Part shown: positions 31,249 to 46,055 of the stretch, one piece after another | How positions within the stretch are numbered: position 1 is the stretch's first letter | Layout: every line of letters starts with the position of its first letter | DNA from: an uncultured Nitrososphaerota archaeon | GTDB taxonomy: Archaea > Thermoproteota > Nitrososphaeria > Nitrososphaerales > CADDZS01 | Direction: 5' to 3' | Assembly: GCA_963799845.1 (NCBI GenBank) | Contig: CAWCYI010000004.1 | Coordinates: 32,001-96,000, forward strand | Length of the DNA: 64,000 nucleotides | The notes under the pieces: generated by a model | Databases searched by the model: none | Told to the model about the DNA's origin: nothing | What the model saw: only the letters and a program-made list of their open reading frames with translations | Program-made: the position numbers and the translations under genes

Positions 31249-31306
31249 TTTAGGCTGTATTTCCATCTCTCAAGAAGACTCTCAATTGCAGGGTTGATTT
31301 CGGAAA

Positions 31307-32620
31307 TTGATTCGCACGAATTATGTCAATGAGCTTCTCTCTAACATCGGGAAGAACGTCGTCATTGCAGGATGGGTCGAGAACGTCAAGGAACTTCCCA
31401 ATTTGCGCTTCGTCATAATTAGGGATCGAACGGGTCTCGCTCAAGTCACTCTGCACAAGAAAAATTCCCCGCACGAGCTTCTTTCCCTTAGTGAGAAACT
31501 GAATCTCCAAGACGTCATCGCAGTCGAAGGACTCGTGCCCGAGAAACAGATTGCGAAGATCGGTCCCGAGCTGAATCCCACTTCGATCACGGTTCTCAAT
31601 CGATCTGATACTCCGCTTCCGATCGATATTACGGGAACGGTCGAAACCCAGCTTGATCTCAGGCTGGATTGGCGTGTTCTTGACCTGCGGAATCCAAGGA
31701 ACCTGGCCATCATGAAAATTGAATCGAAATTCATGGAAGCAGCCGAGGAGTACCTGCGGAATCATGGATTCATCCAGGTCTCAACCCCGGCAATTCTTGG
31801 CGGATCAAGCGAGGGAGGATCAGAGGTTTTCAAGATCGATTACTTTGGGAACCCTGCATTCCTGAGGCAGGATCCTCAGCTTCACAGGCAGCTCGCGATA
31901 GCAGGTGGACTGGACAAAATTTACGATCTGGGCCCTAGCTGGAGAGCAGAGCTGTCGCATACCCCTCAACACCTTTGCGAACACCATACCTTTGCGGTCG
32001 AAATCGGCTTCTTGAAAGATGAGCTTGACACCGAGCGAGTCGAAGAAGATCTTGTGTCGCATACTCTTGGAAAGCTATCCGAGACGGCGAAAGAGGAGCT
32101 GGAACTTTTAGGTGTGAAACTTGAGAAGCCCAGCACTCCATTTCCTGAAATTAGGTTCCCCGAAGTATACGACATTTTGAGAGAGTACGGCAAGATCATC
32201 CCATTCGGAGAAGAGCCTAATCGAGAGGGAGAAGCCATACTCGCGAAGCATGTAAAGGAAAAGACAAAATCAGATTTCTTCTTTGAGAACAGGTTTCCGT
32301 TCAACGTGAAGCCGTTCTATGTCATGCGTGATGATGCCGATCCGAGGTGGGCGAGAAGTGTTGACCTCGTTTACAAAGGCTTGGAACTCTCGTCAGGTGG
32401 CCAAAGGGAACACCGACATGCCAAGTTGATGGAACAGGTGAAGATCAAGGGCCTGGACGAATCCCAGATATCTTGGTTTACTGAAAACTTCCGCTACGGG
32501 GTACCGCCCCACGGCGGTTTTGCTCTCGGAGTTGAACGGACAATCATGCAGACGCTAGGGATTGAAAATATCCGGGAAGTATGCCTGTTCCCGAGAACGC
32601 CTGAAAGACTAAAGCCCTAG
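31307..32620 (+). CDS. aspS: Aspartyl-tRNA synthetase (archaeal type)
   Basis: OB-fold GWV..RDRTG, motif 2 WRAE, SGGQREH, PPHGGFALGVER. Confidence 0.93.
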   Translation: MIRTNYVNELLSNIGKNVVIAGWVENVKELPNLRFVIIRDRTGLAQVTLHKKNSPHELLSLSEKLNLQDVIAVEGLVPEKQIAKIGPELNPTSITVLNRSDTPLPIDITGTVETQLDLRLDWRVLDLRNPRNLAIMKIESKFMEAAEEYLRNHGFIQVSTPAILGGSSEGGSEVFKIDYFGNPAFLRQDPQLHRQLAIAGGLDKIYDLGPSWRAELSHTPQHLCEHHTFAVEIGFLKDELDTERVEEDLVSHTLGKLSETAKEELELLGVKLEKPSTPFPEIRFPEVYDILREYGKIIPFGEEPNREGEAILAKHVKEKTKSDFFFENRFPFNVKPFYVMRDDADPRWARSVDLVYKGLELSSGGQREHRHAKLMEQVKIKGLDESQISWFTENFRYGVPPHGGFALGVERTIMQTLGIENIREVCLFPRTPERLKP

Positions 32621-40586: not shown

Positions 40587-41825
40587 ATGCCACTCGTAAG
40601 AATCGGTCTGATCGGAAAGACCAACACTGGAAAAACTACGTTCTACAACTCGGCGACTGCCCAGAGCGCTGAGGTGAGCAACTATGCTTTCACTACAAAG
40701 ACTCCAAACACCGGCGTGGGTCATGCTGCAACATTGTGCGTTCACAGGGAACTTGGAACCAAAACAGACAATCCGAGAAATTCTGTTTGTATTGATGGCT
40801 GGAGGATTATCCCGATTGAAATTATCGACCTCCCTGGTTTGATCAAAGGCGCGTGGCAGGGTCGAGGCCTCGGGAATCAATTTCTCTCGGTTGCCGCGCA
40901 ATCCGATGCTTTGCTTCACATAGTCGATGCTTCGGGCTCGATAGATGCAGACGGGAAAATTTCCAGCCCGGGAGTCGGCGATCCGGTAGCTGACATTGCC
41001 GACATCGAAGAGGAGCTTGCGATGTGGTATCTCAAAATCCTTGACAACAGTTTCGACAAGATCGTTCGCACGATGAAGGGTTCTCCAATGTCGGATTTTG
41101 GCGAGACGGTCAGCGAGCTGATGCAAGGAGTCGGCGTCAAGAGATCTCACGTAATTGAAGCCCTTGGCAGGCAAAAGCTGTACGGCGAGGAGGCAGAAAG
41201 GTGGACTGACGACCAGAGAAGAGAATTTGCGTGGACTCTGAGAGAAGTCTCGAAGCCCACCTTGATAGTTGCAAACAAGATGGACGTGCCGGAAGCAACG
41301 AAAAACTTTGAGAAAATCAGGGAGAGTTATCACGACATGATAGTAGTTCCGGCGAGTGCTGAGTCTGAACTCACCCTCAGGAGGGCAGAGCAGAGCGGGG
41401 CGATACGATACCTTCCGGGAGAGGAACGATTCGACCTTGTAAAGGACGCGAAACTCACGGACAAGCAGCAGTGGGCCCTCTCTCACATCAGCAAAGCGAT
41501 CCTCGGGGAATACATGAGGACAGGAGTACAATTTGCCCTGAACGTAGCTGTATTCAAGCTGCTGAGAATGAACGCAGTATACCCGGTCTCCGATCCGACA
41601 AAATTCTCAGACAATTCGGGTAACATCCTGCCGGATGTCTTCCTGATGCAAAGCGGGTCAACGGTGACTGATCTCGCGCACTCGATCCACTCCGACCTAG
41701 CACGAGGTCTGATTTATGCAGTGGATGCCCGGACTGGTCTGAGACTGCCGGTTGATTATCAGCTGAAAGATCGTGATGTTCTGTCAATCGTTTCAGCCAC
41801 CAAGAAATCAGAGAACAGGAAGTAG
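40587..41825 (+). CDS. ychF: Obg-family ATPase/GTPase YchF with TGS domain
   Basis: GKTNTGKT, YAFTT, DLPGL, NKMD, C-terminal TGS. Confidence 0.92.
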   Translation: MPLVRIGLIGKTNTGKTTFYNSATAQSAEVSNYAFTTKTPNTGVGHAATLCVHRELGTKTDNPRNSVCIDGWRIIPIEIIDLPGLIKGAWQGRGLGNQFLSVAAQSDALLHIVDASGSIDADGKISSPGVGDPVADIADIEEELAMWYLKILDNSFDKIVRTMKGSPMSDFGETVSELMQGVGVKRSHVIEALGRQKLYGEEAERWTDDQRREFAWTLREVSKPTLIVANKMDVPEATKNFEKIRESYHDMIVVPASAESELTLRRAEQSGAIRYLPGEERFDLVKDAKLTDKQQWALSHISKAILGEYMRTGVQFALNVAVFKLLRMNAVYPVSDPTKFSDNSGNILPDVFLMQSGSTVTDLAHSIHSDLARGLIYAVDARTGLRLPVDYQLKDRDVLSIVSATKKSENRK

Positions 41826-41899: not shown

Positions 41900-42778
41900 A
41901 TGAAATCTATCGGACTAGTCGGCATTGGGCAGATGGGAATGCCGATGGGAAAGAATCTTCTTCGGGTCGGATACGATCTTAAAATATACGCGAGACGTGT
42001 CGAGGCCCTTCACCCTCTTCTGGAGCTAGGTGCCAAATCAGTTGAGAGTCCCGAGTTCGTTTCGAAGAATTCGGAAATAATCGTGTTATCTCTTCCCGCG
42101 CCGCAGGATGTCATTGAAATCATCTTCGGCAATCATGGGCTTGCGTCTGGACTATCAGATGGGAAGACAGTAATCGACACTAGTACAATAGATCCAAAAT
42201 CGTCCAGAGAAATTGCGCACAGATTGAAGGAGATTGGTGTAAACTATCTCGATTCACCCGTGAGCGGAGGACCGGAAGGCGCTACAAGAGCATCACTTAC
42301 GTTCATGGTTGGAGGCAGAAAAGTGACCTTCGAAAAATCCAACGAAATCTTCAGGGTACTTGGCAAGAACATTTTCTACATGGGTGAATCTGGCTCTGGG
42401 AGTGCGGCGAAGCTCGTCAACCAGCTTCTGGTTTCTTCCAACACTCTAGCGAGCGCAGAGGCAATGCAGCTTGCGAAGGCGCTCGGACTGGATTCGAGAC
42501 AGATTATTGAGGTAATTTCTACCAGCGCCGGCGACTCCTTCGCTTTCCGCAGAGTCTCCAAGAAAATAGCCGAAAGAGAATTCGGGGAAGGGTGGCAGAC
42601 CTACCTGCTGGAAAAGGACTTGCGACTTCTCCTCAAGACAAGCTCAGACCTCGGATTGCCCTCGATCAGCGTGAGAACTTCGCTCGAAGTATTTTCGAAA
42701 GCTGTAGCGGAAGGGCTGGGAAAAGTGGATACTTCGAGCGTGATCAAAATTCTTGACGGGATGAGGACTGACGGATAG
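41900..42778 (+). CDS. NAD(P)-dependent beta-hydroxyacid dehydrogenase (3-hydroxyisobutyrate dehydrogenase family)
   Basis: GIGQMGMPM, DSPVSGG, AAKLVNQ, LEKDL. Confidence 0.9.
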   Translation: MKSIGLVGIGQMGMPMGKNLLRVGYDLKIYARRVEALHPLLELGAKSVESPEFVSKNSEIIVLSLPAPQDVIEIIFGNHGLASGLSDGKTVIDTSTIDPKSSREIAHRLKEIGVNYLDSPVSGGPEGATRASLTFMVGGRKVTFEKSNEIFRVLGKNIFYMGESGSGSAAKLVNQLLVSSNTLASAEAMQLAKALGLDSRQIIEVISTSAGDSFAFRRVSKKIAEREFGEGWQTYLLEKDLRLLLKTSSDLGLPSISVRTSLEVFSKAVAEGLGKVDTSSVIKILDGMRTDG

Positions 42779-42780
42779 AC

Positions 42781-43662
42781 TTACCCGTCAAACTCGTTTG
42801 TAGGCAACCCCCTAACATCAACTTTGGCAACGAACAGTCCTCCGCTTAGAGGCTTTGCAGCTAGCACTTTTGGATCCAGCCCATTTTTCGCAGAGGTAAT
42901 GTAAAGCTCATCAAGATTTCTTCCCCCGAAGCAACATGACGTAACCTGATCCGCAGGAATTTCGAAAGTGTCGAGAAGCTTTCCGGTTGAAGGATTCCAC
43001 CTCGTCAATCTCGCTCCTCCCCAGTGAGCGACCCATATCATTCCCTCTTCGTCGACTGCCATTCCATCCGGAGAACCCGGCTGGTTGTTTTGCACGAAAT
43101 CAACGGCCGTCCTTCTATTCTCGATCGCGCCAGTCGCCAATGAATAATCGAAAGCTGACACCTTCAGTGTTGGAGTGTCTATGTAGTACATTACTTTGTT
43201 ATCCGGGCTCCACCCCAGCCCGTTTGATATCGTGACGTTGGGTAGGACTTTATTCAGTTTTTTATTCTTCTCCAGAACGTAAAGTGAACCACTGGAGGAT
43301 CTCTCCTCTCCGTCCATCGTCCCAGCCCAGAACCTCCCTGCAGGATCGCACTTGCCATCATTGAACCTATTTCCGTCCCTTTCTGTTTCTACTTGTTCCG
43401 TCAAAGGAGTGAGCACTTTACTTTCAAGATCCAGTCCGTAATAGCCATGTTGAAGTGTTAGGGCAAGTCCTCCGGCTTTTCTTGGTAAGACGCAGCTGAC
43501 GTCATTAGCCCAAACAACCTCTTCATCGTCAGGATTGTTGGGAGTGTGAGCATAAATGACTCCTTTGTAAATGTCAACCCAGTAGAGAATCTCTTTTTCT
43601 GCGTCCCAGCTCGGGCCCTCGCCCAGCTCGGCTCTCAGGTTTGTGGCAATTTCAGGAATCAT
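42781..43662 (-). CDS. SMP-30/gluconolactonase family protein
   Basis: LGEGP, RFNDGKCD..GRFWAGTM, SNGLGW, PDGM. Confidence 0.92.
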   Translation of the reverse strand: MIPEIATNLRAELGEGPSWDAEKEILYWVDIYKGVIYAHTPNNPDDEEVVWANDVSCVLPRKAGGLALTLQHGYYGLDLESKVLTPLTEQVETERDGNRFNDGKCDPAGRFWAGTMDGEERSSSGSLYVLEKNKKLNKVLPNVTISNGLGWSPDNKVMYYIDTPTLKVSAFDYSLATGAIENRRTAVDFVQNNQPGSPDGMAVDEEGMIWVAHWGGARLTRWNPSTGKLLDTFEIPADQVTSCCFGGRNLDELYITSAKNGLDPKVLAAKPLSGGLFVAKVDVRGLPTNEFDG

Positions 43663-43868: not shown

Positions 43869-43943
43869 TGGTAGGGAACGGCGGACTCGAACGCGCCACC
43901 TCCAGCGAGACCGGCTGGAATCCTGCCCTTGGACCAGCTCCCT
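43869..43943 (-). ncRNA. Non-canonical tRNA-like RNA with encoded CCA; loop CGGUCUC (nominal anticodon GUC)
   Basis: AGGGAGC UG GUCC AAGGGCA GGAU U CCAGC CGGUCUC GCUGG AGGU GGCG(C)G UUCGAGU CCGCC GUUCCCU A CCA folds into a full cloverleaf. Confidence 0.8.
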
Positions 43944-44059
43944 GACAAGTAACTTTCGAGACAGCCAATCAAGGTAATAAGCAATTTGCTCATAATCTTG
44001 ACAAAATGACGACTGAATGCCTTTATACTTCGGATAAATCCGTCGTATTACCAATAAAA

Positions 44060-44500
44060 ATGGAAGAAAAGGATGAGGCTATAATTCGCAAGTTGAGAAT
44101 TGATTCAAGCGAGTCGGTTTCTGAAATCGCTTCGGACCTTAATTTGCCCAGAACTACGGTTCAGGAGAGAATCAAGAAAATGGTCCAAAATGGTATAATC
44201 AAGAGGTTCACGCTGCAGCTAGATTATTCGAAAATCGGAAAATCAGTAACCGCGTTTATTTTAGTCTCATTCCTCGCAGGAACAGGAGTCTCTCAGAAGG
44301 AGGCTGCCCAGAAAATTGCCGAGATTGATGACGTGTATGAGGTTCATGTCATCTCGGGAGACTGGGACATTATCGCGAAGGCGAGGGGAGAGTCGATCCA
44401 ATCCATTGGCGAACTGGTTCTCGACAAGATCAGAAACGTGAAGGGCGTGGAGAGAACACTCACCTGCACATCTTTTGTCACGATCAAAGAGACTCTGTAA
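44060..44500 (+). CDS. Lrp/AsnC family transcriptional regulator
   Basis: HTH (EIASDLNLPRTTVQERIKKM) plus RAM domain (ISGDWD); TATA-like TTTATA at ~44022. Confidence 0.93.
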   Translation: MEEKDEAIIRKLRIDSSESVSEIASDLNLPRTTVQERIKKMVQNGIIKRFTLQLDYSKIGKSVTAFILVSFLAGTGVSQKEAAQKIAEIDDVYEVHVISGDWDIIAKARGESIQSIGELVLDKIRNVKGVERTLTCTSFVTIKETL

Positions 44501-44625
44501 TCTACCGCTCCATAGATCGCCTTCCTATTTTCCAATTTTTTCGCATAAATTATTCGGGCTATTGACCAAGTCTTTGAGTCATCTTAAATAGCGTCCAGAG
44601 AAATCGTGGGAAAGCCGAACGCACC

Positions 44626-45561
44626 GTGAATGCACAAGAAGTAATCGCAGACCTCAGAAAACAGGACATTGAAATCCTGACAGAAGAGAGGTTAACCAAG
44701 ATTATCAACGAAATCTCAAAGCCAGTCACGTACATCGGCCTTGAGCCGAGCAACGTCATTCACATCGGGAACCTAAGTGCTTCAATTCCTGTATTCAAGC
44801 TTGCAAAACACGGCTTCCGGGCGATAATACTCCTCGCCGATCTGCATGCCCTCGCGAATGACAAGGGCGAGATCGGGGAAATTCAGAAATTTGCTGAATC
44901 CGATAAAGAGATGTTTGAGAAAGTTGCCAGAAAGATGGGCATCAGTGGCAAGCTCGAATACAAGTTCGGTACCGAGTTTGAGGATCAGAAATACTTTATC
45001 CAGATGTTGAGGCTTTCAAGGGTGATCAACTTTACCGAAGCCGAGAAGAGCATGGACGAGATCAGCAAATCGTCGGTCAGCAGGATGACGTCCTCGTTGA
45101 TTTACCCTCTGATGCAGGTACTTGACATCGGAGAGTTAGGGGTAAATGTCGCGGTCGGTGCGATAGACCAGCGAAAGGTGCACGTTCTGGCGATTGAGAA
45201 TCTCAAGAAGCTCGGGTACCCGACGCCCGTCGCCATTCACTCCAAGGTCATCCTGCAGGGAGTCGATGGAAAGAGAAAGATGAGCAAATCCTTCGGGAAT
45301 ACGATCAATCTAGACGAGAGCCAAGACAGTCTGGAATCAAAGATAAGGAAAGCATACTGCGCTCCCGGCGATGTTGATGTCAATCCTATTCTGGGTTGGT
45401 ACAAAGCTCTGCTCTTTCCAGTCCTCGACCGACCTCTCACCTTCGGTGCCAAGGAAATTGAAAATTTCCCAGTTCTTGAAACGGTTTGGAAGAAAAACGA
45501 GATAACTCCTCAGGAACTAAAACGCTCCGCCGTAAGAGATCTCGCGGAATTGCTAATCTGA
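44626..45561 (+). CDS. tyrS: Tyrosyl-tRNA synthetase homolog with altered anticodon-binding domain
   Basis: YIGLEPS, HIGN, LLADLH, YPLMQVLD, DQRKVH, KMSKS, KAYC; lacks RPxKFGG loop and HPxDLK. Confidence 0.85.
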   Translation: MNAQEVIADLRKQDIEILTEERLTKIINEISKPVTYIGLEPSNVIHIGNLSASIPVFKLAKHGFRAIILLADLHALANDKGEIGEIQKFAESDKEMFEKVARKMGISGKLEYKFGTEFEDQKYFIQMLRLSRVINFTEAEKSMDEISKSSVSRMTSSLIYPLMQVLDIGELGVNVAVGAIDQRKVHVLAIENLKKLGYPTPVAIHSKVILQGVDGKRKMSKSFGNTINLDESQDSLESKIRKAYCAPGDVDVNPILGWYKALLFPVLDRPLTFGAKEIENFPVLETVWKKNEITPQELKRSAVRDLAELLI

Positions 45562-45641
45562 GCGCGCAAATAGTCGTCTTCATTTCTTGCGAATCGAAAA
45601 AGCTTTTCACCATCCGATTTTGAGCTGAGGTCCGGCCCTAA

Positions 45642-46055
45642 ATGTACTGGTTATTCAAAGAAGACCCTGTGAGCTACTCGTTTGCTCAACTGGAGAAAGA
45701 CCGGAAAACAGCTTGGGAGGGAGTACACAACAATCTTGCCCTAAAATACCTAAGGCAGGTGAAGAAGGGAGATCTGATTTTCTACTACGAGACGGGAGAC
45801 ACGAAAAGCGTGGTGGGTATGATGAAGGCCTCGGGAGACGCGTATTCAACGGAAAAGGGCGATCTTCTTTCCTCGAAAGAGGTAGCCGTCGACGTCGTTC
45901 CTCTAAGAAAACTGAAAAATCCGGTCTCGCTTCAGAAGATCAAATCTAGCTCGAAATTCAAAGACTTTTTGCTCGTGAGAATCTCCAGATTGTCGGTCAT
46001 GCCGGTGACAAATGATCAGTGGGAAGAGATTCTGAAGATTTCCGAAGGGGCCTAG
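45642..46055 (+). CDS. EVE domain protein
   Basis: YWLFKEDP, WEGVHN, GDLIFYY, SRLSVMPV. Confidence 0.9.
   Translation: MYWLFKEDPVSYSFAQLEKDRKTAWEGVHNNLALKYLRQVKKGDLIFYYETGDTKSVVGMMKASGDAYSTEKGDLLSSKEVAVDVVPLRKLKNPVSLQKIKSSSKFKDFLLVRISRLSVMPVTNDQWEEILKISEGA

What the first reader, a model, noticed from the sequence alone, without database searches (positions are those of the whole stretch)
43869..46055. Candidate new system: non-canonical tRNA plus dedicated TyrRS paralog, with Lrp regulator and EVE protein
Seen: a CCA-ending tRNA-like RNA with a broken anticodon loop sits head-to-head with Lrp - TyrRS homolog - EVE, and that TyrRS lacks the anticodon-reading elements. The two anomalies are complementary and lie about 700 bp apart. 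Inference: an orthogonal synthetase/tRNA pair. It might charge Tyr or an analogue for non-ribosomal use, act as an amino-acid sensor with the Lrp, or mistranslate Asp codons (GUC is one base from the Tyr anticodon GUA). Established precedent for such paralog pairs: the Streptomyces ProRS paralog with its variant tRNA-Pro.
Basis: partly seen in the sequence, partly recalled or inferred. Interest (0 to 1): 0.9.

Follow-up and report, generated by a model that had tools for sequence, protein, structure and literature searches.

The report
Odd tRNA-like gene paired with Lrp
A small group of soil archaea keeps an unusual tRNA-shaped RNA gene beside a regulator gene, while the neighbouring tyrosine-tRNA enzyme is the cell's ordinary one and not a special partner for it.

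Summary
The RNA is real. Window 43869-43943 (-) encodes a 75-nt cloverleaf ending in A73-CCA. It has an A1-U72 pair, the anticodon loop CGGUCUC (no U33, pyrimidine 37) and a bulged T-stem. ARAGORN at default settings and Rfam both miss it.

It is conserved in 30 loci (19 distinct sequences) of one Nitrososphaerales family. 13 of 21 base pairs show compensatory changes, and loop positions 34-37 (GUCU) never vary.

The conserved partner is the Lrp/AsnC gene, not TyrRS. Lrp lies head-to-head with the RNA gene in 30 of 30 loci. A shared palindrome plus TATA-like box sits 41-53 nt upstream of the RNA in 26 of 28 distinct upstream regions, and at -71 in one more.

TyrRS follows Lrp in only 10 of 28 loci that could be judged. 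It is the genome's only tyrS, passes NCBI's TyrRS equivalog cut-off, and aligns end to end with solved archaeal TyrRS structures.

Best reading: a lineage-specific tRNA-like RNA that does not decode and is expressed under Lrp control. Its invariant G34 U35 C36 C38 and G10 match the published aspartate identity set, so AspRS is the most likely reader. This is inferred, not shown. The function is open and no expression data were obtained.

The parts
43869..43943 (-). Non-canonical tRNA-like RNA gene, 75 nt including encoded CCA. Acceptor AGGGAGC/GUUCCCU (A1-U72), A73, D-arm GUCC/GGAU, anticodon stem CCAGC/GCUGG with loop CGGUCUC, variable loop AGGU, T-stem GGCG[C]G/CCGCC with one bulged C, T-loop UUCGAGU.
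   Evidence: Sequence; fold; ARAGORN only at lowered threshold; own covariance model R1 scores 105.2 bits; conservation begins at A1 and ends at CCA; covariation.
43977..43990 (-). Box B: palindrome AGCAnnnTGCT running into TTAT (TATA-like), 34-47 nt upstream of A1. Candidate operator overlapping the promoter of the RNA gene.
   Evidence: Invariant block in the 8-locus intergenic alignment. The core pattern occurs in 27 of 28 distinct upstream regions, at -41 to -53 in 26 of them and at -71 in one; chance expectation is 0.008 per 150 nt. The strict 14-mer occurs only twice in the 4.6-Mb genome.
44000..44010 (.). Box A: GTCAnnnTGAC-type palindrome between the two divergent genes. Candidate Lrp operator.
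   Evidence: Invariant GxCGTCA...G.C block; a regex match in 24 of 28 distinct upstream regions.
44022..44027 (+). TTTATA, TATA-like box for the Lrp gene. It lies inside the mechanical ORF that starts at 44006, so the Lrp start is more likely 44060.
   Evidence: Conserved TATA(T/A)AGGCAT block (read on the RNA strand); orthologues start at the MEEKDE-equivalent position.
44060..44500 (+). Lrp/AsnC-family transcription regulator, 146 aa from the likely start (the mechanical ORF starts at 44006). Divergent from the RNA gene. This is the conserved partner.
   Evidence: Pfam PF01037, PF13404, PF13412. NCBIfam best hit is LysM at 93 bits, below its 180-bit cut-off. Orthologues adjacent in 8 of 8 genome loci and 22 of 22 metagenome RNA loci.
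44626..45561 (+). Tyrosine--tRNA ligase, short archaeal form, the genome's only tyrS. A neighbour in this sub-lineage, not part of the conserved module.
45642..46055 (+). EVE-domain protein, 137 aa. It travels with TyrRS, not with the RNA.
   Evidence: Pfam PF01878 at 116.5 bits. EVE lies near TyrRS in 6 of 11 family TyrRS loci, while Lrp is present in only 2 of those 11.
40587..41825 (+). YGR210-like Obg-type GTPase with TGS domain. In most relatives it is the convergent neighbour at the RNA's 3' end. In the window two genes (41900-42778, 42781-43662) lie between them.
   Evidence: Pfam; adjacency in G005, G008, G010, G011, G012 and in 7 metagenome loci. Most genomes of the order (29 of 41 searched) hold two such GTPases, so it is a housekeeping gene.

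Best explanation
SHOWN. Window 43869-43943(-) is a functional, lineage-specific RNA gene with a tRNA cloverleaf, found in one family of Nitrososphaerales. Selection keeps all four stems through compensatory changes. It also keeps the A1-U72, G2-C71 and G3-C70 pairs, A73, G10, the T-loop core and G34 U35 C36 U37 (plus C38 in 18 of 19 distinct sequences). Position 33 varies freely (G, A or U), position 37 is a pyrimidine, and the T-stem carries a bulge of 1-4 nt. The gene has its own conserved upstream box (palindrome plus TATA-like) at a fixed distance. It always sits head-to-head with one Lrp/AsnC regulator gene. The TyrRS is the ordinary, single-copy archaeal TyrRS and is a neighbour only in the window's sub-lineage. 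INFERRED, about 35-40% likely. The RNA is a tRNA mimic that works outside normal decoding. U33 and a purine at 37, which ribosomal decoding normally needs, are not kept. The bulged T-stem may weaken elongation-factor binding. Some partner reads the 3' half of the loop and the A73(-CCA) end. The invariant G34, U35, C36, C38 and G10 are five of the six aspartate determinants listed for bacteria, so the housekeeping AspRS is the most likely reader and would load aspartate. The adjacent Lrp, a family that typically senses amino acids, would control transcription through the shared operator region. The RNA would then serve as an amino-acid-responsive aminoacyl carrier or signal. What happens to the charged RNA downstream is unknown. 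The confidence given (0.38) is for this inferred mechanism; the anatomical part that is shown I hold at about 0.9.
For: Conservation and structure. Conservation starts at A1 and ends at CCA while the flanks diverge. There are 30 loci with 19 distinct sequences. 99.2% of 399 pair cells are paired, 13 of 21 pairs change on both sides, 0 of 500 shuffles reach this, and slid controls give 40-56% paired. The invariant columns and the bulge variants (C, T, A, AC, CTT, CTTT) can be read directly. The family's most divergent members (57.6 and 48.8 bits) keep the cloverleaf and GUCUC while every stem differs. Not a canonical tRNA. ARAGORN at default and Rfam both miss it. The same genome has a canonical tRNA-Asp with loop CUGUCAC, G1-C72 and G73 at C4:488362-488476. 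An ammonia-oxidiser relative has the same loop (L214). Unlike nearly all tRNA genes of this genome, the RNA gene has no intron and encodes CCA. 32 of 35 ARAGORN calls carry an intron flag, and 3 of 36 T-arm/acceptor candidates end in CCA. Lrp link. Lrp is adjacent and divergent in 8 of 8 genome loci and 22 of 22 metagenome loci that have room upstream. Box B is present in 27 of 28 distinct upstream regions, at -41 to -53 in 26 of them, against 0.008 expected, and is nearly unique in the genome. Box A is present in 24 of 28. Asp reading. The review PMC9976931 (passages) lists aspartate identity as G73, G34, U35, C36, C38, plus G10 in bacteria and G10.U25 in yeast. An AspRS of the Asp-tRNA(Asn) ligase type lies at window 31298-32617. 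TyrRS is ordinary.
Against: A73 is invariant where the aspartate set has G73, a strong determinant in bacteria and yeast. The archaeal row for Asp is empty in the review table, so the identity argument is borrowed from other domains. No expression or charging data exist. No second AspRS or other dedicated enzyme was found: the genome has AspRS, AsnRS and an AsnA-type asparagine synthetase, all standard. The Lrp adjacency is seen within one family only, so conserved synteny is not excluded. The palindromes could serve Lrp autoregulation alone. That the T-stem bulge blocks EF1A is conjecture. The G011 copy lacks both the bulge and the encoded CCA, and 3 of 19 distinct sequences lack encoded CCA. 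The covariation alignment was fitted to the model.
Confidence: 0.38

Rival explanations
1. Uncharged regulatory or decoy RNA. The cloverleaf is a scaffold, and the invariant GUCU(C) loop and A1-U72/A73 end are read by some protein or RNA other than a synthetase. Examples would be a tRNA-binding factor, a nuclease for which it acts as a decoy, or base pairing to an AGAC-containing target. It would never be aminoacylated.
For: The invariant loop half sits next to free variation at positions 32/33. G73, the discriminator of the aspartate set, is missing. D- and T-loop signatures degenerate in the G010 and G011 copies while the loop motif stays. No dedicated synthetase was found.
Against: A73 is invariant and CCA is encoded in 16 of 19 distinct sequences, although most tRNA genes of this genome do not encode CCA. 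This points to a used acceptor end. No candidate partner was identified, and box B gives no regulon.
Confidence: 0.28
2. A genuine decoding tRNA. It could be a second tRNA-Asp(GUC) isodecoder with an unusual loop. It could also be a dual-identity tRNA that reads GAY codons with another amino acid under Lrp control, giving regulated mistranslation as with tRNAProX in Streptomyces.
For: The 7-nt loop has GUC at positions 34-36 in 18 of 19 distinct sequences. The cloverleaf, T-loop core and CCA are intact. Regulated expression is suggested by the operator boxes. A precedent for dual-identity tRNAs exists (PMC10404621, abstract read).
Against: U33 is present in only 2 of 19 distinct sequences and position 37 is always U. 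The T-stem bulge is conserved. A canonical tRNA-Asp exists in the same genome. The RNA evolves much faster than the order's canonical tRNAs, which stay near-identical across families.
Confidence: 0.15
3. One reading: the adjacent TyrRS is the RNA's dedicated or dual-use synthetase and loads Tyr or an analogue onto it.
For: The two genes are adjacent in the window and in 9 other loci. A73, G34 and U35 fit tyrosine identity. The family's TyrRS has TPQE where other archaeal TyrRS have HPxD in the C-terminal domain. From recall, those are the residues that touch G34 in M. jannaschii TyrRS, so anticodon reading may be relaxed.
Against: It is the only tyrS in the genome. The two genes are not linked in 18 of 28 loci that could be judged. 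TyrRS of this type occurs in G007 and G009 where no RNA was found. The RNA has A1-U72 instead of C1-G72 and C36 instead of A36. TyrRS travels with the EVE gene, not with Lrp or the RNA.
Confidence: 0.06
4. A decaying tRNA pseudogene or a chance cloverleaf.
For: It scores below the thresholds of the standard tRNA finders. The single-sequence folding energy is no better than shuffles (z = -0.35).
Against: Compensatory changes occur in all four stems across 19 distinct sequences. Conservation boundaries are sharp, the loop motif is invariant, and there is a conserved promoter-like box.
Confidence: 0.02

Closest known systems
ProRSx / tRNAProX of Streptomyces and Kitasatospora (PMC10404621; abstract and outline read)
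   Same: A non-canonical tRNA gene encoded beside a synthetase gene, restricted to one lineage. A tRNA body of one identity carries the anticodon of another.
   Different: In that system the synthetase is a distinct extra ProRS isoform and is typically encoded next to the tRNA. Here the TyrRS is the only copy and is linked in only 10 of 28 loci. tRNAProX decodes on the ribosome, whereas this RNA lacks U33 and a purine at 37 and has a bulged T-stem. The conserved neighbour here is a regulator.
Canonical archaeal tRNA-Asp(GUC)
   Same: G34 U35 C36 C38 and C32 (C32 in most copies), G10, a 7-nt loop and the cloverleaf.
   Different: The canonical gene of this genome has loop CUGUCAC, G1-C72, G73, introns and no encoded CCA. 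The RNA has G/A/U33, U37, A1-U72, A73, no intron, encoded CCA and a bulged T-stem.
tRNA-Gly(CCC) of ammonia-oxidising Nitrososphaerales (best non-family matches of model R1, 52-59 bits)
   Same: Very similar acceptor (xxGGGAU), D-arm (GGUCU...AGGAU), an identical anticodon stem CCAGC/GCUGG in some, A73 and encoded CCA. This is the likely ancestral type.
   Different: The loop is CUCCCAA rather than CGGUCUC, the first pair is G1-C72, and the T-stem is regular. These genes are not next to an Lrp or the GTPase.
Non-proteinogenic tRNA-Gly of Staphylococcus and other tRNAs used outside translation (recalled; no paper read here)
   Same: tRNA-shaped aminoacyl carriers whose T-stem changes keep them away from the elongation factor. 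This is the functional model proposed here.
   Different: Those are bacterial, keep a normal anticodon loop, and have known acceptor enzymes (Fem). No such enzyme is identified here.
Divergently transcribed Lrp/AsnC regulator-target pairs, for example asnC-asnA (recalled)
   Same: An Lrp-family gene lies head-to-head with its target, with palindromic operators in the shared intergenic region.
   Different: The putative target here is a tRNA-like RNA gene. No such pairing turned up in the literature searches.

Membership tests
Canonical elongator tRNA (Rfam RF00005 / ARAGORN) | Reaches the detection score of the standard models | tested here: not met
   ARAGORN at default: 0 genes in the window. 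Rfam: no match at gathering score or at E<=10 on 451 bases. ARAGORN calls it only at 90% of its thresholds.
Canonical elongator tRNA (Rfam RF00005 / ARAGORN) | Cloverleaf with four helices kept by covariation | tested here: met
   13 of 21 pairs changed on both sides and 99.2% of cells paired.
Canonical elongator tRNA (Rfam RF00005 / ARAGORN) | U33 and a purine at position 37 in a 7-nt anticodon loop | tested here: not met
   Position 33 is G in 11, A in 6 and U in 2 of 19 distinct sequences. Position 37 is U in 19 of 19. One sequence has an 8-nt loop.
Canonical elongator tRNA (Rfam RF00005 / ARAGORN) | Continuous 5-bp T-stem | tested here: not met
   A bulge of 1-4 nt lies between the 4th and 5th pair on the 5' strand in 18 of 19 distinct sequences.
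tRNA-Asp (aspartate identity set) | G34, U35, C36, C38 and G10 | tested here: met
   G34, U35, C36 and G10 are present in 19 of 19 and C38 in 18 of 19 distinct sequences. The set is taken from PMC9976931 passages. It is not established for archaea.
tRNA-Asp (aspartate identity set) | Discriminator G73 | tested here: not met
   A73 in 19 of 19 distinct sequences.
Archaeal tRNA-Tyr (tyrosine identity set) | C1-G72 pair | tested here: not met
   A1-U72 in 19 of 19; set from PMC9976931.
Archaeal tRNA-Tyr (tyrosine identity set) | A73, G34, U35, A36 | tested here: inconclusive
   A73, G34 and U35 are present; position 36 is C, not A.
Tyrosine--tRNA ligase (NCBIfam NF006330; the protein at 44626-45561) | Score over the curated equivalog cut-off and full-length match to solved TyrRS | tested here: met
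   266.2 bits against a 220-bit cut-off. Residues 11-306 align with 2CYB and 10-310 with 1J1U. HIGN and KMSKS motifs are visible in the translation.
Dedicated synthetase-paralog / tRNA pair (ProRSx-tRNAProX type) | A second, distinct copy of the synthetase besides the housekeeping one | tested here: not met
   The genome (86.7% complete) has two PF00579 genes, and the other is TrpRS. One TyrRS match per relative in 10 of 12 family genomes.
Dedicated synthetase-paralog / tRNA pair (ProRSx-tRNAProX type) | Synthetase and RNA gene co-occur and are linked across relatives | tested here: not met
   Linked in 10 of 28 loci that could be judged. TyrRS is present but no RNA was found in G007 and G009.
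Dedicated synthetase-paralog / tRNA pair (ProRSx-tRNAProX type) | The synthetase charges the RNA | not testable with these tools
   Needs an aminoacylation assay.
Lrp/AsnC regulators (the protein at 44060-44500) | AsnC-type HTH plus Lrp/AsnC ligand-binding domain | tested here: met
   PF13404 at 36.9 bits and PF01037 at 53.3 bits, both over their cut-offs. No NCBIfam equivalog cut-off is reached.

The most novel reading that the evidence does not exclude
A new class of archaeal tRNA-like adaptor. The RNA is loaded with aspartate (or another amino acid) through its invariant GUCU(C) loop and A73-CCA end. The bulged T-stem and the loop without U33 or a purine at 37 keep it off the ribosome. An amino-acid-sensing Lrp regulator switches it on or off. 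It would be a dedicated non-ribosomal aminoacyl carrier or starvation signal in soil and peat Nitrososphaerales, and the first tRNA-like gene known to be paired with its own transcription factor.
Probability: 0.3. Interest if true: 0.8.

Novelty: new variant of a known kind. Interest (0 to 1): 0.6.

Why it matters
Non-canonical tRNAs with their own jobs are few, and almost all known ones are bacterial: cell-wall tRNA-Gly, tRNAProX, allo-tRNAs. This one is archaeal and clearly under selection. It has an unusual, easily recognised signature: A1-U72, A73, loop NNGUCUC and a bulged T-stem. It also always comes with one regulator gene, which gives a direct experimental handle. If it is charged, it would show a tRNA-dependent process outside translation in archaea, or a regulated recoding device. 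It also has a practical lesson. Standard tRNA finders miss this gene, and the 'special TyrRS' next to it is simply the normal short archaeal enzyme.

Tried and rejected
1. Standard detectors. ARAGORN at default and Rfam at gathering and at E<=10 give nothing. The five weak Rfam rows are chance.

2. Single-sequence folding gives no signal (z = -0.35). The evidence for structure is comparative only.

3. Hunt for a canonical tRNA-Tyr(GUA) in the genome. I used ARAGORN with introns, RF00005, my own T-arm/acceptor scan, a C1-G72/A73/GTA scan and a GTA stem-loop scan allowing an intron. None gave a convincing candidate. I also listed the RF00005 matches of a complete relative, G019, and typed 31 of its 32 rows (the Gly(CCC) gene was already held). 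No tRNA-Tyr was recognised there either. These genomes have many multi-intron tRNAs and the window's genome is 86.7% complete. The presence of tRNA-Tyr is therefore untested, not refuted.

4. Expression. One RNA run was offered (X1). When laid, it gave a single 174-nt contig, identical to window 44365-44538 (the Lrp 3' end and beyond), and nothing over the RNA gene. This says nothing about the RNA either way.

5. Dedicated partner enzyme. PF00152 finds AspRS, AsnRS and an AsnA-type asparagine synthetase, all standard.

6. The neighbouring TGS-domain GTPase as a specific partner. Most genomes of the order (29 of 41 searched) hold two such GTPases, and G007 and G009 keep the orthologue without the RNA next to it. 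I treat it as synteny.

7. A regulon for box B. The strict motif occurs only twice in the genome.

8. Ancestral position. tRNA-Gly(CCC) loci of other families have no Lrp or GTPase neighbours. The 55 more distant Lrp relatives (49-63% identity) have no head-to-head tRNA or tRNA-like gene (default filters).

9. A GUCUCG hexamer in the window's own leader is not conserved in relatives and is taken as chance.

10. Literature. Searches found no description of such an RNA or of an Lrp/tRNA-like pairing. This holds for those searches only. No supplementary files were opened and they may bear on this.

11. No structure prediction, complex prediction, protein database search or atlas search was run.
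Full report
WHAT IS AT THE COORDINATES. The window is G000:C4:32001-96000 of a 4.6-Mb, 9-contig archaeal genome that is 86.7% complete. Record titles of near-identical relatives read 'Nitrososphaerales archaeon'. On the minus strand at 43869-43943 lies a 75-nt cloverleaf:
- acceptor AGGGAGC/GUUCCCU, with A1-U72
- discriminator A73 and an encoded CCA
- D-arm GUCC-AAGGGCA-GGAU
- anticodon stem CCAGC/GCUGG with loop CGGUCUC
- variable loop AGGU
- T-stem GGCG[C]G/CCGCC with one bulged C
- T-loop UUCGAGU

ARAGORN reports no tRNA in the whole window at default settings. It calls this one tRNA-Asp(gtc) only at 90% of its thresholds. Rfam gives no tRNA match at gathering score or at E<=10 on the 451 bases around it. 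Divergent from it are an Lrp/AsnC regulator, then a class-I W/Y synthetase, then an EVE-domain gene.

THE TyrRS IS THE ORDINARY ONE.
- The 311-aa protein scores 266.2 bits on NCBI's TyrRS equivalog NF006330, whose cut-off is 220.
- It aligns over residues 11-306 with A. fulgidus TyrRS (2CYB, 323 aa; E 8e-62) and over 10-310 with M. jannaschii TyrRS (1J1U, 306 aa).
- The short archaeal form has no bacterial S4-like C-terminal domain (established knowledge). That absence was probably read as 'lacks the anticodon-reading elements'. The archaeal C-terminal domain is present here.
- One detail does differ. The motif is HPxD in those two structures and in other Nitrososphaerales families. It is TPQE in the window and (T/S/N)PQ(E/D/Q) in most of the family. 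From recall, the His and Asp of that motif contact G34 in M. jannaschii TyrRS. I did not test this.
- The genome holds only two PF00579 genes. The other is TrpRS, at 521 bits on NF008927. A search with NF006330 itself finds no further copy.
- In the protein search, 10 of 12 family relatives gave one TyrRS match each. The 2 without a match are 58% and 61% complete.

It is therefore not a paralog.

THE RNA IS CONSERVED AND STRUCTURED.
- A DNA search of 40 relatives found the RNA at 93-100% identity in three genomes of the same genus and at 79-84% in two genomes of the same family.
- In the alignment, conservation begins exactly at A1 and ends at CCA, and the flanks are unalignable.
- A covariance model built from these six sequences (R1) found two much more divergent family copies next to the same Lrp orthologue. 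G010 scores 57.6 bits and G011 scores 48.8 bits. In these every stem differs but still pairs.
- Using the Lrp alignment as bait in metagenome contigs returned 80 loci. R1 finds the RNA in 22 of them.
- The total is 30 loci with 19 distinct sequences.
- On the model-fitted alignment A6, 99.2% of 399 pair cells are standard pairs and 13 of 21 pairs change on both sides. 0 of 500 column shuffles reach any of the five measures. Sliding the 3' partners drops pairing to 40-56%. The fitting favours the structure. The six-sequence MAFFT alignment already showed the same trend.

Invariant across the 19 distinct sequences:
- A1-U72, G2-C71, G3-C70 and A73
- U8, G10 and U11
- the closing pair of the anticodon stem
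- G34 U35 C36 U37
- G53, U54, C56, A58 and C61

C38 is present in 18 of 19.

Variable features:
- Positions 32/33 read CG, CA, GU or UU, the last in the one copy that has an extra C in an 8-nt loop.
- The D-loop varies.
- The T-stem bulge varies in sequence and length (C, T, A, AC, CTT, CTTT; none in G011).
- CCA is encoded in 16 of 19 distinct sequences.

HOW IT DIFFERS FROM THE GENOME'S REAL tRNAs.
- 32 of 35 ARAGORN calls in this genome carry an intron flag.
- Only 12 loci pass Rfam's tRNA cut-off, all longer than a mature tRNA.
- Only 3 of 36 T-arm/acceptor candidates end in CCA.
- The tRNA-like gene has no intron and encodes CCA.
- A canonical tRNA-Asp exists at C4:488362-488476. By my reading it has G1-C72, G73 and, after removal of an intron between positions 32 and 33, loop CUGUCAC. 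A relative has the same loop (L214).
- Outside the family, the best R1 matches are ordinary tRNA-Gly(CCC), Ala and Val genes at about 50-59 bits.
- tRNA-Gly(CCC) of ammonia oxidisers shares much with the RNA: the acceptor core, the D-arm, in some copies the identical anticodon stem, A73 and encoded CCA. A Gly-type tRNA is a plausible ancestor.

THE CONSERVED PARTNER IS Lrp, NOT TyrRS.
- An orthologue of the Lrp gene (58-92% identity) lies head-to-head with the RNA in 8 of 8 genome loci.
- The same holds in all 22 metagenome RNA loci.
- Three further close Lrp loci have no room upstream on their contigs (L229, L235, L268).
- 55 more distant Lrp relatives (49-63% identity) have no such RNA.
- TyrRS follows Lrp in G000, G004 and eight metagenome loci. 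It does not in 18 loci that have at least 400 nt downstream. Five loci cannot be judged. That is 10 of 28.
- Elsewhere, a luciferase-like monooxygenase gene follows Lrp in 3 loci and an XdhC gene in 1.
- TyrRS travels with the EVE gene instead, in 6 of 11 family TyrRS loci.
- On the RNA's 3' side, most relatives have a convergent YGR210-like GTPase gene. In the window's sub-lineage a gluconolactonase-like gene is found next to the RNA's 3' end. In the window itself a 3-hydroxyisobutyrate-dehydrogenase-like gene lies beside it, so two genes separate the GTPase from the RNA.
- Most genomes of the order hold two such GTPases (29 of the 41 searched). G007 and G009 keep the orthologue without the RNA or Lrp next to it. 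The GTPase link is therefore plain synteny.

THE SHARED INTERGENIC REGION. The eight-locus alignment shows three conserved blocks and a non-conserved stretch of about 33 nt directly upstream of the RNA.
- Box B is the palindrome AGCAnnnTGCT running into TTAT. It is present in 27 of 28 distinct upstream regions, at -41 to -53 from A1 in 26 of them and at -71 in one. Chance expectation is 0.008 per 150 nt. The strict 14-mer occurs only twice in the genome.
- Its TTAT(T/A) end sits where an archaeal TATA box would be for a transcript starting a few bases before A1. That placement rests on established promoter geometry and is an inference.
- Box A (GTCAnnnTGAC) is found in 24 of 28.
- A TATA-like TTTATA for Lrp lies at 44022-44027. 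It sits inside the mechanical ORF that starts at 44006, so the real Lrp start is probably 44060, as in the orthologues.

MECHANISM. Shown: a selected cloverleaf RNA gene with its own conserved upstream element, paired with a regulator.

Inferred:
- Ribosomal decoding normally needs U33 and a purine at 37. Neither is kept, while G34-U37 are frozen. So the loop is probably read by a protein.
- According to the review PMC9976931 (passages read), aspartate identity rests on G73, G34, U35, C36 and C38. G10 is added in bacteria and G10.U25 in yeast. The RNA keeps all of these except G73.
- For tyrosine in archaea the set is A73, C1-G72, G34, U35 and A36. The RNA has A73, G34 and U35 but fails C1-G72 and A36.
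- AspRS is thus the most likely reader. An AspRS of the Asp-tRNA(Asn) ligase type lies in the window at 31298-32617.
- The archaeal Asp row of the review table is empty, and A73 is a real objection.
- That the bulged T-stem keeps the RNA away from EF1A is conjecture, by analogy with tRNAs that escape the elongation factor (recalled).
- That the Lrp senses an amino acid and controls the RNA follows from the family's known behaviour and from the operator-like boxes. It is not shown.

I put the anatomical part at about 0.9 and the AspRS-charged, non-decoding, Lrp-controlled reading at about 0.35-0.4.

WHAT IS KNOWN. tRNAProX genes sit beside a distinct extra ProRS isoform and mistranslate Asn or Thr codons (PMC10404621, abstract and outline read). 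This locus fails that system's defining features: there is no second synthetase and no conserved linkage. Three literature searches turned up nothing like the RNA or an Lrp/tRNA-like pairing. The tRNAscan-SE 2.0 paper (passages) confirms that Thaumarchaeota carry many non-canonical tRNA introns, which explains the poor tRNA recall here. No supplementary files were consulted.

LIMITS.
- There is no expression evidence. The one RNA run gave a single contig, over the Lrp 3' end only.
- tRNA-Tyr(GUA) was not located (see Tried and rejected).
- All RNA loci come from one family, so relatedness inflates the counts.
- Some metagenome loci carry RNA sequences identical to genome loci (L244 to G012, L246 to G008, L245 to G010) and may be the same organisms.
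- G001 is unpublished and supports no claim by itself.

VERDICT. The TyrRS half of the finding is ordinary. The interesting unit is the tRNA-like gene plus its Lrp regulator.

Noticed in passing
G000:C8:78364-78439 (outside the window): ARAGORN calls a 76-nt intron-less tRNA with a four-base anticodon 'cttg'. It has an 8-nt anticodon loop on a Gln-like body with A1-U72 and A73. A second Gln-like gene with introns and a normal UUG loop lies at C6:181586-181707.
   Followed up: no
Whole genome G000: Nearly all tRNA genes carry introns, often several and at non-canonical positions. 32 of 35 ARAGORN calls have an intron flag, and only 12 loci pass Rfam's tRNA cut-off. Several isoacceptors, Tyr among them, were not located with the tools at hand.
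   Followed up: partly
window 44626-45561 and loci L015-L034: This family's TyrRS is the short A. fulgidus / M. jannaschii type (about 311-320 aa). It is only 28-30% identical to the 350-376-aa TyrRS of the other Nitrososphaerales families searched. This suggests that the gene was replaced by one of another origin in this family. The C-terminal motif HPxD reads (T/S/N)PQ(E/D/Q) here.
   Followed up: partly
window 45642-46055 and loci L015-L025: The EVE-domain gene lies next to or within about 1.3 kb of tyrS in 6 of 11 family loci. This TyrRS-EVE block is independent of the Lrp/RNA pair.
   Followed up: partly
window 41900-43662: In the window, a 3-hydroxyisobutyrate-dehydrogenase-like gene and a gluconolactonase-like (SGL) gene lie between the GTPase gene and the 3' end of the tRNA-like gene. 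In most relatives those two are directly adjacent. The SGL gene is also found next to the RNA in four metagenome loci (L225-L227, L231). This may mean the RNA's 3' flank acts as an insertion point. No integrase was seen.
   Followed up: no
window 31298-32617 (+): The genome's AspRS, of the Asp-tRNA(Asn) ligase type (469.6 bits on NF003483), lies 11 kb upstream of the tRNA-like gene. The genome also has an AsnRS (C6) and an AsnA-type asparagine synthetase (C4:1889196-1890176).
   Followed up: partly
window 44365-44538: A 174-nt contig of a metatranscriptome run (X1) is identical to the 3' end of the Lrp gene and the 38 bases after its stop codon.
   Followed up: no
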